9,758 bases of DNA from Azolla caroliniana (taxonomy: Eukaryota > Plantae > Polypodiophyta): assembly GCA_043228905.1 (NCBI GenBank), contig JBHGNT010001333.1:1-9758 (forward strand), read 5' to 3'. Shown piece after piece: positions 1 to 9,474 of this stretch. The notes below the pieces were generated by a model, which saw only the letters and a program-made list of their open reading frames with translations, did no database searches and had not been told where the DNA came from. Position numbers and translations under genes: made by a program. Every line of letters begins with the position of its first letter. The stretch's first letter is position 1.

Positions 1-274
1 AACGATAAGGAAGTAGTTGATGGAGAAACAGAAAATAATGTTGACTTCACATATCAAGGACATGGAGATACTTTGAGTGATGTCTTAAATGTTGGGGATA
101 ATTTTGCTGTAAATGCAGAAGAAGGCAATTCAGAGGGTGTTGATTTCTATATATTGAAGTGCACGATTAGTAAACAGTGTGCAACGCAGAATATATTAGA
201 TGCTTGGGGAAATGTTGTATCTACCGGGCATTCTACATCGAAGGTATTTTTTATGCAAGACTAGATGATTACTA
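1..274 (+). pseudogene. 5' part of an ORF remnant interrupted by the copia insertion (unknown protein, possibly C-terminal region of a DNA-transposon protein)
   Basis: Frame 1 is open from base 1 (NDKEVVDG...LSDVLNVGDNFAVNAEEGNSEGVDFYILKC...DAWGNVVSTG). A 1-nt deletion in the GGG run at 226-228 moves the reading to frame 3 (AFYIEGIFYARLDDY), which runs into the TSD and continues in frame after 5908. Confidence 0.6.
270..274 (+). repeat. Left 5-bp target-site duplication TACTA
   Basis: TACTA immediately precedes the TG at 275, and the identical TACTA follows the CA at 5903. Confidence 0.97.
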
Positions 275-827
275 TGTTGAGAAGCAAGCTCAACATGGTA
301 TGTGATGCTTATTGGGAAATAAGCTATAGTAGCTATTTAGCTACTTGTGAACATAAAGGAGAAACAACTAATTAGCTACTGACAGCTAATTAGCTACTGA
401 CAACTATTTAGCTACTGACAGCTATTTAGCGACTGACAGCTATTTAGCGACTGACAGCTATTTAGCGACTGACAGCTAATTAGCTACTGACAACTATTTA
501 GCGACTGACAGCTAATTAGCTGCATACGTAAGTAACTTATTACTTAGGTAGAAAGTAAGAGAAAGGTAAGTAAGAAACACAGGAAGTAGAACTCTGAGAG
601 AGAGAGTGAGGAAAGAGAGGAAGAACTCAGAGAGTGAGAGAAAAAGAAAGAAATAGACGAGAGCAAGTAGAGCTTCGCGTATAATGAAATAGAAGAAGTT
701 TTGGCTGCTATAGAGGTAAGTCTCCTTCCCCCTTCCCTTCTGTGTTTGAGCACTAAACGATCTAGCACACCACGATCCGCCGCGCACATAAGAAGAGCCC
801 GAGTGCCTTCTTCACGTTTTCTTAACA
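275..827 (+). repeat. 5' LTR of element A (553 bp)
   Basis: Begins TGTTGAG, ends CTTAACA directly before the PBS. Matches 5404-5903 except for array copy number, 2 substitutions (675/5750, 711/5786) and a 1-bp indel near 768/5843. Confidence 0.97.
364..521. repeat. 18-bp tandem array in 5' LTR, consensus ACARCTAWTTAGCKACTG, 8 full units plus a 14-bp partial
   Basis: Units start at 364, 382, 400, 418, 436, 454, 472, 490, 508. The core AGCTAATTAGCT is palindromic. Confidence 0.96.
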
Positions 828-839
828 TGGTATCAGAGC
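828..839 (+). promoter_or_regulatory. Primer-binding site complementary to the 3' end of initiator tRNA-Met
   Basis: TGGTATCAGAGC immediately after the LTR-terminal CA; the canonical plant tRNA-iMet PBS. Confidence 0.96.
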
Positions 840-966: not shown

Positions 967-1620
967 ATGTTTGCAGAGAATGCGGGCCAAATAGTTACAG
1001 AGAAACTAGATAAAAACAATTTTCCGGCGTGGAAATTTAGAATGACAAATTTCCTAATGGGGAAAGGATACTGGGATTACATTGAAGGAGACCTAGAAGA
1101 GGCTCTGGAGATCCCAGAAGAAAATGCCACAGCAGCACAGATTAAAGCATTCAAAGATTGGAATCAAGGGGCAAGGAAGGTAATGCATTGGTTCTCACTT
1201 AGCATCTCAGATTCGATGCTTGGGCACATACAGGATGCTATGCTCCCAAAAGAAGCTTAGGACAGTTTGGTAAAACTGTTTGCAGTAAACACAAAAGCTA
1301 GAAAGCTACAGTTGAAGACTGAGCTAAATACCTTATAAAAAGGTAAGATGTCAATAAATGAGTATGCCTTGAAAATAAAGAGCATATGTGAATCACTTGC
1401 TTCTATCAATGTAAAGATAGAAGATGATGATAAGGTAGAAATATGCTTAAGAGGCTTAGGACCTCAATACAAAAGCTTTAAAACCTCTATGCTTACAAGG
1501 GATAGTATCCCAAGCTTTCTAGATTTGGTTTCAATGCTTGTAGTAGAAGAAAGCTATGCTTACAAGGGATAGTATCCCAAGCTTTCTAGATTTGGTTTCA
1601 ATGCTTGTAGTAGAAGAAAG
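967..1620 (+). pseudogene. gag: Copia Gag (capsid-like region), disrupted
   Basis: ATG at 967: MFAENAGQIVTEKLDKNNFPAWKFRMTNFLMGKGYWDYIEG... In-frame stops TAG 1258-1260 (EA*DSL, probably TGG) and TAA 1336-1338, then MSINEYALKIKSICESLASI...LRGLGPQY. Frameshifted by the 67-bp duplication. Confidence 0.9.
1487..1620. repeat. Perfect 67-bp tandem duplication within gag
   Basis: 1487-1553 is identical to 1554-1620 (CTATGCTTACAAGG...GTAGAAGAAAG); shifts frame 1 to frame 2. Confidence 0.97.
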
Positions 1621-3070
1621 GAATCAGATGGATGATGTAAATAAAGGAAATCTTGAGAATGAGGGGCAAGCCCTATATAATAGTGCTGGAAGAGGCCGAG
1701 GAAGAGGCCATGGAAGATTTGGCTCAGCAAGAACCAACAATAATGGTTATCAAGGAAGAGGACAACAAACCATTAGAGGAAGAAATAACAACAGAGGCAG
1801 GGGGAGCAACCAAGGTAGAGGTAAGCAAACATATGTAAATGATGATGGTTGTTGGTATTGTGGAAAACCAGGCCACACACAAGCTGAATGTTACAAGAAG
1901 CAAAATGATGAGCAAAGAGGAAAGAGACAGCAGAATAACTATGCCCAAACTAGTGAAGATTGTGAAAAAGATGGTGCATTTGTGGTACAACATGAGATAG
2001 CAGCAGTGGCTGAAAGCTCACAGAAATGTAATGAAGAGTTTACATGGTATGTAGACTCGGGGGCATCTAACCATATGATTGGACATGCAAACTCGTTTGA
2101 AAGGTTGAGAGAACCAGAGATTCCTGGCTATGTACAGACGACTGATAATAGTACTCACCAAATAGAACATGTTGGAGATATCCCATTGTGGGAAGAAAAA
2201 GGAAAGACTAAGTATATGTTGAGTGTAATGCATGTTCCAAATCTTGCTAAGAATCTGATTTCTGTTGGACAGATAGTAGAGCAAGGTATGCAAGTAAAGT
2301 TTAAGCAAAGTGGATGCTATATAGAAAAGAATGGGAAGCTCATTGCAAAAGGAAAACGACAAGGAAGAATGTTTATTTTGGATGTTGACATGCCTAGACA
2401 GATTTCAGCTATGTTTGCAAATGGAATGAGTGTAGTCTCAGATGTGGAAATGTGGCATAAAAGGATTGGCCACATAAGTATGCAAACCCTAAAGAATATG
2501 TTGAGAAAAGATGCAGTGGCTGGACTGCCAAAACTGAAAAATTGTGAAATGGGAAAGATATGTGAAGCATGTCAATATGGAAAGCAAAATAGGTTGTCAT
2601 TCCCTCATGAAAGACATGTAAGTAAAAATTTGTTGGATTTGGTACATACGGATGTATGGGGACCAACTAAGAATGCATCTATCGGTGGTTGCAGATTTTA
2701 TGTAACTTTTATTGATGATTGCTCAAGGAAAACATGGGTGTATTTCATGAAAGAGAAAAGTGAAGTGTTTGAATGTTTTCGTAAGTTTAAATGCATGGTA
2801 GAAAAGCAGGCAGGTACAAGAATAAAATGTTTAAGATCTGATGGAGGAGGAGAGTATTTCTCCAATGAATTTTCTGATTTTCTATGCAATCAGGGAATAA
2901 GAAGACAGTTCACATGTAGATATACTCCACAGCAAAATGGAGTTGCTGAGAGGAAAAACAGAACATTGGTGAACATTGCAAGGGCTTTGATGACAGAGAA
3001 GAATATGCCATTGTACTATTGGGCAGAAGCTGTAAATACAGCGAATTATATTCTAAATAGAGATGTATAA
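1556..3070 (+). pseudogene. pol: Gag C-terminus (RG-rich region, CCHC knuckle), aspartic protease, pre-integrase and integrase core
   Basis: CWYCGKPGHTQAEC (CX2CX4HX4C) at 1850-1891, WYVDSGASNHM at 2045, WHKRIGH...CEAC HHCC motif, catalytic D 2651, D 2840, E 2948 (D-35-E). Ends at a 2-bp GA insertion (about 3062-3063); the true frame continues CITSGIHEATPEECFYGRKPSLEHLKVFG. Confidence 0.95.
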
Positions 3071-5385
3071 CATCGGGAATACATGAAGCAACTCCTGAAG
3101 AGTGTTTCTATGGAAGGAAACCTAGTTTAGAACACTTAAAAGTGTTTGGATGCCTTGCATATGTACATGTGCCTGCAGAAGTAAGAAGTAAGCTGGATCC
3201 AAAAGCAGAAAAATGTATTTTTGTTGGCTATTCAGAAGAACAAAAAGGGTATCGATGCTATAACCCTGTAACAAAGAAGATTGTGACAAGTAGGGATGTA
3301 ATCTTTGATGAGTTAGCCAGCTGGTATAGTCCAAAACAAAATCCAGAGATTGATGAAGACAATGAGATTGAAGACAGAGACAAATCTGAAAATGTAGAAG
3401 ACTGCCACAGAGATGGAAGCAAGGTTGGACAGCAGAGTCCAACATCAACAGAATGTTCTGGACCATCAAAAAGCTCAGATGGTAAATCTGATCCGAATTC
3501 TTGGAGTGGAAAAAGTGGAGGACACAAAAAATGTGATGATAAAAAAGGAAAACAGAAAATGCCACAGTATGAAATGTTGGATGACTTATCTAAAAACATG
3601 GAAGATGAGGATTCAGATGTGTCATTGGATGATCTTCTTAGTATAAGAGGATTGAAAATCCCTGGTATGGAAAAAGCATTGAAGGATGCAAATCAGAAAC
3701 TGAGAAGATCAGATAGAGAGAAAAAAATTGTTGAAAGATTTGGTTATGATACATATATGGCTATGCATTATGCATATATGTCTAAGGTGGTACAGATCCC
3801 TGATCCAAGTAGTTTTGATGAGGCTAAAACTGAGAAGAAATGGGTGGATGCAATGCAAGAAGAGATTGATGCATTAGCTGAAAACAGAACATGGGATTTG
3901 GTGAAGTTACCAAAAGGAAAAAATGTGGTAGGTTGCAAATGGGTCTACAAGACAAAGCATGATTCCATTGGGAATGTAAGTAGACATAAAGCAAGATTGG
4001 TTGCAAAGGGATATGCCCAAATGCAAGGAATTGATTATGATGAGACATTTGCACCGGTTGCAAAGATGGCAACATTGAGGACATTACTGGCTGTAGGTGC
4101 AGCCAGAAGATGGTTTCTTCATCATATGGATGTAAAAAATGCCTTTTTACATGGTAACTTGGAAGAAGAAGTGCATATGTGTCAACCACCAGGTTTTGAA
4201 GATAGGAAGCATTCAGATTATGTATGTAAGCTGAAAAAGGCTCTCTATGGACTGAAACAAGCACCAAGAACATGGCACAGAGAACTTTCAGATTATCTGA
4301 AAAAACTTGACTTCAAAATGTCAAAGGCTGATTCATCATTGTATGTTAAAAGGAAAGATGATTGTATTGTTGTGATTCTGATTTATGTTGATGATCTCAT
4401 CATTGGAGGTGATTTCATGGATGAGATAAGTAAGTTGAAAAGAAATTTGGAAATGAAATTTCATATGAAAGATTTGGGAGATCTGAGATATTTTTTGGGT
4501 ATTGAAATCATCAGATCTGAAAGTGGTATATGTGTGTTGCAAAGACAATATGCAACAACTATGTTGAAAAAGTATGGTATGCTTGGATGCAAACCTATTG
4601 GAGTACCACTAGATAAAAACTACAAATTGAGGGCTGATTTGGGAGCCAAAATAGAAGATGTAAACATGTACAGGTCTATGGTGGGCAGCCTTATTTATTT
4701 GACCATAACAAGACCTGATTTGAGTTATGCAATTGGTTTAGTCAGCCAATTTATGCAACAGCCAAAAAAGCCGCATTTGGACTGCATTAGAAGAATTCTG
4801 AGGTATGTAAAAGCTACTCAGAACTATGGATTGTTTTACAGGGCTGATTTGGACATAAATCTGGAAGGATATACAGATGTTGATTGGGCTGGAAGCCAAA
4901 CAGATAGAAGATCCACAAGTGGATATATCTTTACATTGGGAAGTGCAGGTATTTCACGGAGTAGCAAGAAACAGGCTATTGTTGCATTGTCTAGTACTGA
5001 AGCTGAGTACAGAGGAGCTGCCATAGCCACTTGTGAAGAGGTATGGATCAGAAGATTGCTTGCTGATTTGGGAGAGTATATAGACGGTACTGTCACAATC
5101 TGGTGTGACAACATGAGCAACATTCAGCTTGCAAAGAACCCAGTGTTCCATGCAAGAACAAAGCACATTGAAGTGCATTATCACTTTGTTAGAGAAAAAG
5201 TGATTGAAGGAGAAGTTGATTTGGTGTATGTGAATACAAATCAGCAGGTTGCTGATATTCTCACAAAGGGATTGAGTGTGGAAAAGCATACACAGTTTCA
5301 GAACATGATGGGAGTTGTAGACATTGATATGATGGCTGAAAAGCATCATGGAAAAGAAGTTGTAGATAACCCCAAGAAAGGATAA
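3064..5385 (+). pseudogene. pol: Integrase C-terminus, reverse transcriptase and RNase H of element A (open frame, but downstream of frameshifts)
   Basis: FGCLAYVH...SKLDPKAEKCIFVGY, CKWVYKTK, KARLVAKGY, DVKNAFLHG, LYGLKQAPR, YVDDL at 4384, YTDVDWAG, STEAEY, CDN, HARTKHIEVHYHFVRE, ADILTK; stop at 5383-5385. Confidence 0.96.
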
Positions 5386-5394
5386 GTTGAGCTT

Positions 5395-5403
5395 GAGGGG
5401 GAG
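5395..5403 (+). promoter_or_regulatory. Polypurine tract of element A
   Basis: GAGGGGGAG abutting the TG start of the 3' LTR. Confidence 0.93.
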
Positions 5404-5903
5404 TGTTGAGAAGCAAGCTCAACATGGTATGTGATGCTTATTGGGAAATAAGCTATAGTAGCTATTTAGCTACTTGTGAACATAAAGGAGAAACAACTAA
5501 TTAGCTACTAACAGCTATTTAGCTACTGACAGCTATTTAGCGACTGACAGCTAATTAGCTACTGACAACTAATTAGCTACTGACAACTATTTAGCTGCAT
5601 ACGTAAGTAACTTATTACTTAGGTAGAAAGTAAGAGAAAGGTAAGTAAGAAACACAGGAAGTAGAACTCTGAGAGAGAGAGTGAGGAAAGAGAGGAAGAA
5701 CTCAGAGAGTGAGAGAAAAAGAAAGAAATAGACGAGAGCAAGTAGAGCTCCGCGTATAATGAAATAGAAGAAGTTTTGGCTGCTACAGAGGTAAGTCTCC
5801 TTCCCCCTTCCCTTCTGTGTTTGAGCACTAAACGATCTAGCACCACCACGATCCGCCGCGCACATAAGAAGAGCCCGAGTGCCTTCTTCACGTTTTCTTA
5901 ACA
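5404..5903 (+). repeat. 3' LTR of element A (500 bp)
   Basis: Direct repeat of 275-827, followed by the TSD TACTA. Confidence 0.97.
5493..5596. repeat. 18-bp tandem array in 3' LTR, 5 full units plus a 14-bp partial
   Basis: Units start at 5493, 5511, 5529, 5547, 5565, 5583; three fewer than in the 5' LTR. Confidence 0.96.
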
Positions 5904-5908
5904 TACTA
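5904..5908 (+). repeat. Right 5-bp target-site duplication TACTA
   Basis: Identical to 270-274. Confidence 0.97.
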
Positions 5909-6074
5909 TTATGTGTATAGGCTATTAGAAGACAAATCAGTGGCGTACATGTACTCTCATTTGGTCATGTGCATCAATGTCCTAATGTCGCAATACAATA
6001 GCTGCTCAGGTTTATACACAGTTAGTGCTAATGTGTATGAATGTATTTACAACAGTATGCCATGGAATTTGTAG
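5904..6074 (+). pseudogene. 3' part of the ORF interrupted by element A
   Basis: In frame with 228-274 once the element and one TSD are removed: YYYVYRLLEDKSVAYMYSHLVMCINVLMSQYNSCSGLYTVSANVYECIYNSMPWNL, stop TAG 6072-6074. Confidence 0.65.
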
Positions 6075-8919: not shown

Positions 8920-9065
8920 CTGAGAAGGGCCGCATGAGCAGACAAGCTGACCGGAAGGGTCGAAGCGCACGAAATCAAACGGGTCGAGGAGCGCGAGTGA
9001 GGCGTGAAGCCACGAGAAGCCGGAGCGAAGATCCAGCGGAGCACGCGGAATCTCAAGTTGAGCTT

Positions 9066-9074
9066 GAGGGGGAG
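9066..9074 (+). promoter_or_regulatory. Polypurine tract of element B
   Basis: GAGGGGGAG abutting TGTTGAG at 9075; identical to the PPT of element A. Confidence 0.9.
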
Positions 9075-9474
9075 TGTTGAGAGACAAGCTCAACATTGGG
9101 TACGTAACCCAGTACGTAGATTGGGTGCGTAAATCCATATGGAAAATATGGCCGTGGTAGTGTTTAAATCAAGAGGCCGTTAGAATGTTATTCCTCGTAA
9201 GGAATAGTTTTGGGAGTTAGTGTATAAGGCTCATTTATGAGTGGTCAAGTACTAGCAGTACTTGTGTCAGCCCGATAGTCAAGGCTTGTATAAAAGGTGC
9301 TCACAGAGCACGAAATATGTACAGAGAATTATTTCAATATAGTTTCGTATTTTCTACTCTCTCTATCTCTCCCTCCCTTTCTCTGTGTTTTTTGTGTTTC
9401 ACCGAACTGTCGTACTTCCAAACCGTGCACTCTGTGTTCTTACACATATGCTTCCGCACACATATTCTTTTACA
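9075..9474 (+). repeat. 3' LTR of element B (about 400 bp)
   Basis: Starts TGTTGAG after the PPT; TATAAAA at 9289-9295; CT-rich tract at about 9350-9385; ends TTTTACA at 9474 where the gypsy reading frame is cut. No partner LTR in the window, so the end is inferred. Confidence 0.8.
9289..9295 (+). promoter_or_regulatory. Putative TATA box of element B LTR
   Basis: TATAAAA(GG) in mid-LTR, upstream of a pyrimidine-rich tract. Confidence 0.55.

What the first reader, a model, noticed from the sequence alone, without database searches (positions are those of the whole stretch)
768..785. U5 sequence complementary to the D-arm of tRNA-iMet (bipartite primer binding), element A
Seen: CACCACG-A-TCCGC-C-GCGC lies 42 nt before the LTR end (also 5843-5861, where the extra C adds a pair). 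The plant tRNA-iMet sequence as I recall it (AUCAGAGUGGCGCAGCGGAAGCGUGGUGGG...) can form 7+5+4 bp with it. Established: yeast Ty1 and Ty3 use extended or bipartite tRNA-iMet contacts outside the PBS. Inference: the same tRNA is held at both the PBS and this upstream U5 box.
Basis: partly seen in the sequence, partly recalled or inferred. Interest (0 to 1): 0.72.

Follow-up and report, generated by a model that had tools for sequence, protein, structure and literature searches.

The report
Second tRNA grip upstream of PBS
A branch of plant jumping genes with a short primer-binding site keeps, just upstream inside its terminal repeat, a 20-base stretch matching the other end of the same initiator tRNA, which likely gives the primer a second grip when copying starts, as in yeast and HIV elements but not found described for plants.

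Summary
768-785 (and 5843/4-5861) lies 42 nt before the end of the LTR of a Ty1/copia element (LTRs 275-827 and 5404-5903, 12-nt Met PBS at 828-839). It is complementary to nt 7-28 of initiator tRNA-Met; the recalled tRNA equals a published plant sequence. One copy alone is modest evidence (energy z -1.9; alignment score matched at 3 unrelated sites in 463 kb). Relatives add more: all 11 PBS sites of one gag clade keep the box, a small hairpin and a 12-13-nt PBS; the other 48 sites (mostly near-copies of one family) lack the box and have a 17-nt PBS. Across ten clade members 79% of box bases pair Watson-Crick with the tRNA in register (90% with G-U), against at most 48% in 259 other registers. 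Best reading: a split primer site, functionally like Ty1/Ty3 extra boxes, placed like the HIV primer activation signal. Against: one evolutionary event, no compensatory covariation, box-PBS self-pairing in 3 of 11, host tRNA not seen, no experiment, and Ty1's comparable box 2.1 was not confirmed in particles. New variant of a known kind.

The parts
275..827 (+). 5' LTR of Ty1/copia element A (TG...CA)
   Evidence: direct repeat of 5404-5903, 491/499 identical, TSD TACTA at 270-274 and 5904-5908
758..763 (+). CGATCT, possible third contact with the T loop of the initiator tRNA (weak, 6 nt)
   Evidence: GATC(C/T) at this place in 7 of 10 clade members examined, GATTT in 2, absent in 1; inference only
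768..787 (+). D-arm box: complement of initiator tRNA-Met nt 7-28 (core 768-785)
791..811 (+). predicted hairpin between box and PBS
   Evidence: centroid fold; 4-pair consensus helix with one G-C/U-A compensatory pair, 97.9% of 48 cells paired; probability 0.95 when the PBS is occupied
828..839 (+). 12-nt primer-binding site for the 3' end of tRNA-Met
   Evidence: sequence; complement of the 3' end of the tRNA plus CCA
967..5385 (+). gag-pol region, broken by stops, a 67-nt duplication (1487-1620) and a frame change near 3061-3070
   Evidence: Pfam Retrotran_gag_3, Pol_BBD, gag_pre-integrs, rve, SH3_retrovirus, RVT_2 in copia order
5395..5403 (+). polypurine tract
   Evidence: sequence
5404..5903 (+). 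3' LTR
5843..5863 (+). 3' LTR copy of the D-arm box, one C longer

Best explanation
The box is a conserved 20-base complement of the D-arm region of initiator tRNA-Met inside the LTR of one copia clade, and it likely serves as the second half of a split primer-binding site. Shown: position, complementarity, clade-wide conservation, co-occurrence with a 12-13-nt PBS. Predicted: the hairpin at 791-811 folds out the spacer so that box and PBS lie close. Inferred: the tRNA 3' end pairs at 828-839, the freed 5' part (nt 7-28) pairs at 768-787 with help from the Gag zinc knuckle, which would stabilise selection, packaging or activation of the primer in place of the longer PBS that the relatives use; reverse transcriptase would displace the contact 27-40 nt after starting.
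For: In-register pairing of ten clade members with a proxy initiator tRNA: 79% Watson-Crick, 90% with G-U; best of 259 other registers on five tRNAs 48% Watson-Crick. Where the window mismatches the tRNA, relatives often pair (nt 14: 9 of 9 others; nt 20: 3 of 9). In ten comparisons across deep branches the box is 55-86% identical, the 23 nt upstream 26-52%, the first 23 leader nt 30-48%, four-fold gag sites 42-61%. Box in 11 of 11 clade PBS sites and 0 of 48 others; 17-nt extended PBS in 0 of 11 and 48 of 48; clade support 100/99. The box pairs better with the proxy (-23.4 kcal/mol) than with any of 553 40-mers of its own element (best -15.6). Co-folding gain with the PBS blocked: -12.7 to -17.7 with three initiator proxies, -1.4 to -6.5 with four other tRNAs. 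D arm nt 8-25 invariant in 5 of 5 proxy tRNAs and the same in the plant sequence. Precedents in Ty1, Ty3 and HIV-1.
Against: Box gain and PBS shortening map to one branch, so they are one event, and the 48 outgroup sites are mostly near-copies. The tRNA is invariant, so no compensatory covariation is possible; C>T (27 of 95) versus G>A (6 of 40) is not significantly asymmetric (p 0.13) and fits methylation decay. The register has hand-placed gaps taken from the window. Against L040/L060 the box is only 55-59% identical, near the shuffled baseline of 48.5. For L005, L066, L073 an Ile tRNA co-folds about as well, and outgroup L003 reaches -16.6 with one proxy. Net gain is small once the box (+4.8) and the tRNA arms (+13.6) are opened. 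In 3 of 11 the 5' half prefers the element's own PBS. Ty1 box 2.1 formed in vitro but was not confirmed in particles (PMC3592414). Close outgroups do without the box.
Confidence: 0.58

Rival explanations
1. The box binds initiator tRNA sequence, but not the primer held at the PBS in cis: a second tRNA, the primer of the partner genome, or a 5' tRNA fragment (packaging, dimerisation or host silencing).
For: Sequence evidence cannot tell which molecule binds. A 19-nt 5' MetCAT fragment cleaves Athila6A RNA, and 5' fragments accumulate in moss (PMC5605234 passages); the plant 5' 19-mer is present in wheat small RNA (PMC5411081).
Against: The box covers nt 7-28, not nt 1-19, so a 19-nt fragment would pair over only about 11 nt with a mismatch; an element would not be expected to conserve a silencing target; the fixed 27-40-nt spacing with a hairpin and the link to short PBS fit a cis contact better.
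Confidence: 0.14
2. The box is kept for folding of the element's own RNA: its ACCA mimics the tRNA 3' end and masks the PBS/LTR junction, and the tRNA match is partly a by-product because the tRNA also holds UGGU at nt 24-27.
For: Box-PBS pairing probability 0.83-1.0 in L040, L060, L068 and 0.39 in L004.
Against: 0.08 in the window and at most 0.02 in six others; the base after ACCA is C in 7 of 10 and the base before it C in 9 of 10, fitting tRNA G and not the PBS junction; it does not explain the TCCG..TG..GC half.
Confidence: 0.12
3. Relic: a piece of antisense tRNA (copied primer or an old half-tRNA-Met PBS) was captured once into the LTR of the clade's ancestor and is decaying or kept for an unrelated reason.
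For: Single origin; departures from the tRNA complement are mostly transitions; half-tRNA-Met priming exists in Osser, Bryco and Gymco-II (PMC6317226).
Against: The box is better conserved than adjacent LTR and leader sequence while four-fold sites are near saturation; no match to the anticodon loop that a half-tRNA PBS would start with was found in the window or 80 loci. Capture as the origin is compatible with the best explanation.
Confidence: 0.1
4. Chance likeness of a GC-rich motif conserved for protein binding (integrase, Gag, transcription).
For: Single-copy energy z only -1.9; control tRNAs reach similar z; unrelated sites scoring 24-26 exist (3 in 463 kb).
Against: The matched RNA is the very tRNA that the neighbouring PBS uses; register test 79% versus at most 48%.
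Confidence: 0.06

Closest known systems
S. cerevisiae Ty1 extended PBS (boxes 0, 1, 2.1; PMC3592414 and PMC4974528, passages read)
   Same: Ty1/copia element, initiator tRNA-Met, short PBS (10 nt) plus extra complementarity to T and D arms
   Different: Ty1 boxes lie 3' of the PBS in GAG; here the box is 5' of the PBS inside the LTR, so reverse transcriptase must copy through it
S. cerevisiae Ty3 5'-3' bipartite PBS (PMC5371799 and PMC4974528, passages read)
   Same: short PBS; D arm held by a separate segment
   Different: Ty3 is gypsy and its extra segments are about 4.8 kb away at the 3' end; here the box is 27-40 nt upstream (a 3' copy would be in the RNA only if the box is in R, unknown)
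HIV-1 primer activation signal (PMC13191261, passages read)
   Same: tRNA-complementary sequence upstream of the PBS
   Different: PAS pairs with the T arm of tRNA-Lys3; this box is about 20 nt and matches the D arm and anticodon-stem 5' strand of tRNA-Met
Plant Ty1/copia lineages of REXdb (PMC6317226, passages and two supplementary rows read)
   Same: domain order, 5-bp TSD, PBS for the 3' end of whole tRNA-Met
   Different: that survey scored PBSs within 50 bp downstream of the LTR; no upstream tRNA match appears in the passages seen; lineage of this element not assigned

Membership tests
Ty1/copia LTR retrotransposon | gag-PR-IN-RT-RH order with RVT_2 | tested here: met
Ty1/copia LTR retrotransposon | two TG...CA LTRs, TSD, PBS, PPT | tested here: met
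Half-tRNA-Met primed lineages (Osser, Bryco, Gymco-II) | PBS complementary to the 5' half of tRNA-Met | tested here: not met
   PBS matches the 3' end of the whole tRNA; no anticodon-arm complement in window or loci
Split/extended primer-binding site (Ty1/Ty3 type) | short PBS (under 18 nt) | tested here: met
   12 nt in the window; no extension in 11 of 11 clade sites
Split/extended primer-binding site (Ty1/Ty3 type) | separate conserved segment complementary to the D or T arm of the primer tRNA | tested here: met
   (proxy tRNA; plant tRNA by eye)
Split/extended primer-binding site (Ty1/Ty3 type) | extra segments 3' of the PBS (Ty1) or in the 3' UTR (Ty3) | tested here: not met
   box is 5' of the PBS in the LTR; no site scoring 21 or more in the window's leader or 3' UTR
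Split/extended primer-binding site (Ty1/Ty3 type) | pairing occurs and is needed for priming or tRNA packaging | not testable with these tools
   no experiment; no RNA holder listed
HIV-1 PAS-like element | upstream of the PBS | tested here: met
HIV-1 PAS-like element | pairs with the T arm | tested here: inconclusive
   main box matches the D arm; only a 6-nt T-loop complement at 758-763
Embedded tRNA gene or Pol III unit | tRNA fold or Rfam match in the window | tested here: not met

The most novel reading that the evidence does not exclude
One seedless-plant copia clade swapped its long PBS for a reversed-order, three-part primer cradle inside the LTR (T-loop box, D-arm box, hairpin, short PBS) that unfolds nearly the whole initiator tRNA; if the box lies in R, the 3' copy could let the primer bridge both genome ends and guide first strand transfer.
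Probability: 0.25. Interest if true: 0.72.

Novelty: new variant of a known kind. Interest (0 to 1): 0.5.

Why it matters
Plant LTR elements are assumed to prime like yeast Ty1 on the basis of a simple PBS (PMC12786077 passages). A conserved second tRNA contact inside the LTR, with sister lineages that use a long PBS instead, gives a natural contrast for testing how primer-binding energy is split, and suggests that PBS-only annotation misses part of the primer site. It also marks a possible target for 5' tRNA-Met fragments.

Tried and rejected
No own genome is held. Pattern scans for a plant initiator tRNA gene found 0 stretches in viral contigs and 0 in genome contigs; the bare 16-base pattern gave 91 viral stretches, 0 of 91 with a tRNA, so they are taken as chance. 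Gag profile found no relative in viral contigs. No tRNA gene or Rfam family at gathering level in the window: embedded tRNA/Pol III unit rejected. U5 folding is not stronger than shuffles in the window (z 0.63; 1 of 8 sequences below -2). Cyclisation partner inside the element: best own 40-mer -15.6 versus -23.4 for the proxy tRNA; whole element tested only for the window and L004, partial for L008 and L040. Contigs of seven runs laid on the region: at 80% likeness the whole LTR end is conserved, so they do not single out the box; listed box changes were C>T at 771 (6.5-28% of summed depth), 781 (0.4-5%), 783 (0.1-6.8%) and G>A at 784 (0.4-2.2%); depth is no copy number. No RNA holder listed. 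C>T/G>A asymmetry as proof of selected wobble: rejected (p 0.13). The looped-out nt 9 would fit a methylated G9, but that modification in plant initiator tRNA is recalled; one search showed only that m1G9 is general. Earlier-findings look-ups gave nothing on this motif. Supplements of bioRxiv papers, and files 6 and 13 of PMC10344777, were not seen.

Full report
Context. The window holds a complete but broken Ty1/copia element: LTRs 275-827 and 5404-5903 (491 of 499 aligned bases identical), TSD TACTA, PBS 828-839, PPT 5395-5403, with gag, protease, integrase and RVT_2 domains in copia order. The best named gag relatives are Adiantum and Ceratopteris proteins at about 66-73%; the best named RT/RNase H relatives are angiosperm proteins near 50%. 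A seedless land plant host is inferred, not shown. No genome of the host is held.

The observation. The motif is at 768-785 and 5844-5861, 42 nt before the LTR end. By eye the window pairs 7+5+4 with tRNA nt 28-22, 19-15 and 13-10, plus 2 at nt 8-7. For computation I used five initiator-type tRNA-Met genes from giant-virus contigs (5 of 9 loci, confirmed as tRNA); nt 8-25 are invariant in all five, and L083 differs from the plant sequence at one position of nt 7-31. With this proxy, the window's score of 24 was reached by 4 of 4000 random windows that include the box loci and at 3 unrelated sites in 462,768 bases. By energy the single copy is weak: z -1.9, with control tRNA windows reaching -2.8 and -2.9.

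Relatives. A gag profile found 137 relatives in metagenome contigs; the best 80 were kept. They and the window hold 59 Met PBS sites. Eleven (window, L004-L008, L040, L060, L066, L068, L073) form one gag clade with 100/99 support, 72-93% identical to the window (34 loci and 8 proteins in the tree, most near-copies of the large outgroup family left out). All 11 have the box, 10 the hairpin motif and none the PBS extension; of the other 48 none has the box and all have a PBS extended to 17 nt with one mismatch (the box pattern was derived from the clade, but alignment scores agree: 7 of 11 versus 2 of 48 at 17 or more). The long-PBS elements fall in two separate groups around the clade, so the simplest history is one gain of the box with one shortening of the PBS. 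That is a single event and not a statistical correlation.

Conservation and specificity. In ten comparisons across deep branches the box is 55-86% identical, the next 23 nt (hairpin) 48-87%, the 23 nt upstream 26-52%, the first 23 leader nt 30-48%; four-fold gag sites are 42-61% (8 pairs) and the shuffled baseline is 48.5. In ten members (3' LTR copy and L008 dropped as near-copies; nt 26 and nt 9 skipped) 149 of 200 cells pair Watson-Crick, 27 G-U, 19 mismatch, 5 gap; mismatches gather at nt 20-21. The true register gives 79% Watson-Crick, the best of 259 other registers on five tRNAs 48%; the register has hand-placed gaps, which favours it. C>T is not significantly more frequent than G>A (27 of 95, 6 of 40, p 0.13), so G-U tolerance is not shown to be selected. 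Laid contigs from runs labelled with four organisms and a leaf metagenome show a high-copy family with few changes in the box, but equally few around it.

Structure. Between box and PBS sits a predicted hairpin with one compensatory pair (G-C in 6, U-A in 5 of 12 rows), which is one change on the tree. With the PBS blocked it forms with probability 0.78-1.0 in 9 of 11. The spacer is 27-28 nt in eight of ten members measured and 40 nt in two. Opening the box costs 3-8 kcal/mol and the proxy's arms 13.6, against duplexes of -15.7 to -26.8: favourable in the best members, marginal in others, so a chaperone would be needed (a zinc-finger hit below cut-off lies in gag). Co-folding favours initiator over control tRNAs in the window, L004, L006, L007, L008, L040, L060, L068, not clearly in L005, L066, L073. 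In L040, L060 and L068 the 5' half of the box instead pairs with the LTR end and PBS when no tRNA is present; this may be an alternative function or a switch that the tRNA opens.

Mechanism. Most likely (0.58) the box is the second part of a split primer site: 3' end of the tRNA on the 12-nt PBS, nt 7-28 on the box, hairpin folding out the spacer, perhaps a T-loop contact at 758-763. Rivals: a different tRNA molecule or fragment (0.14), intramolecular PBS masking (0.12), relic of a captured tRNA piece (0.10), chance (0.06). Nothing here shows binding.

Comparison with what is known. Ty1 has a 10-nt PBS with T- and D-arm boxes 3' of it, Ty3 has segments at both genome ends (PMC4974528, PMC5371799; passages). 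Ty1 box 2.1 formed in vitro but was not confirmed in particles, where the sequence pairs with CYC3 (PMC3592414; passages), a warning against reading complementarity as contact. HIV-1 PAS lies upstream of the PBS and pairs with the T arm (PMC13191261; passages). The plant survey (PMC6317226; passages and two supplementary rows) and a 2025 review (PMC12786077; passages) mention only the PBS downstream of the LTR in what I saw. PMC5605234 (passages) supports the tRNA-fragment rival; PMC7694415 (passages) gave general modification facts. Friant 1996/1998 and Gabus 1998 were seen only as references. Searches found no plant description of an upstream D-arm box; the library lacks most subscription and older papers, so this is weak evidence of novelty.

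Verdict. Real, conserved, tRNA-specific feature; a new variant of known extended primer-template contacts, differing in place (inside the LTR, upstream of the PBS) and length, with a natural long-PBS control lineage. Interest 0.5.

Noticed in passing
window 9448-9457 (3' LTR 9075-9474 of a second, degraded copia element): ATGCTTCCGC pairs with tRNA nt 15-24 (10 bp, one G-U), 17 nt before the LTR end; score reached by 184 of 4000 background windows. This element lies outside the box clade on a long branch, so it may be an independent case or chance.
   Followed up: partly
window 714-721 and 904-915: A splice-donor-like AG|GT(A/G)A at the same place in 6 of 10 clade members examined and a branch-point/CAG-like stretch in the leader; splicing would remove box and PBS from the gag mRNA. 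No RNA data.
   Followed up: partly
window 5385-5423; also 9056-9094 and many loci: GTTGAGCTT before the PPT and AAGCTCAAC at the LTR start form an inverted repeat around the PPT; these 40 nt are 87-95% conserved across both clades and the second element.
   Followed up: no
window 275-301 and 5404-5430: The LTR begins with a mini inverted repeat TGTTGAG...CTCAACA followed by TGGTAT, resembling an LTR end plus the first six PBS bases.
   Followed up: no
window 366-522 and 5495-5597: 18-nt tandem repeats in U3 with different copy numbers in the two LTRs and most of the LTR differences.
   Followed up: no
window 1-274 and 5904-6053: The element interrupts an open frame that continues on the other side of the TSD; no Pfam family at cut-off.
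   Followed up: partly
L011:1849-1870, L018:336-357: In a long-PBS subfamily a stretch about 190 nt downstream of the PBS scores 22 against the D-arm complement; may be chance.
   Followed up: no
L082, L083, L085, L086, L088: Giant-virus contigs carry eukaryote-type initiator tRNA-Met genes in tRNA clusters.
   Followed up: partly
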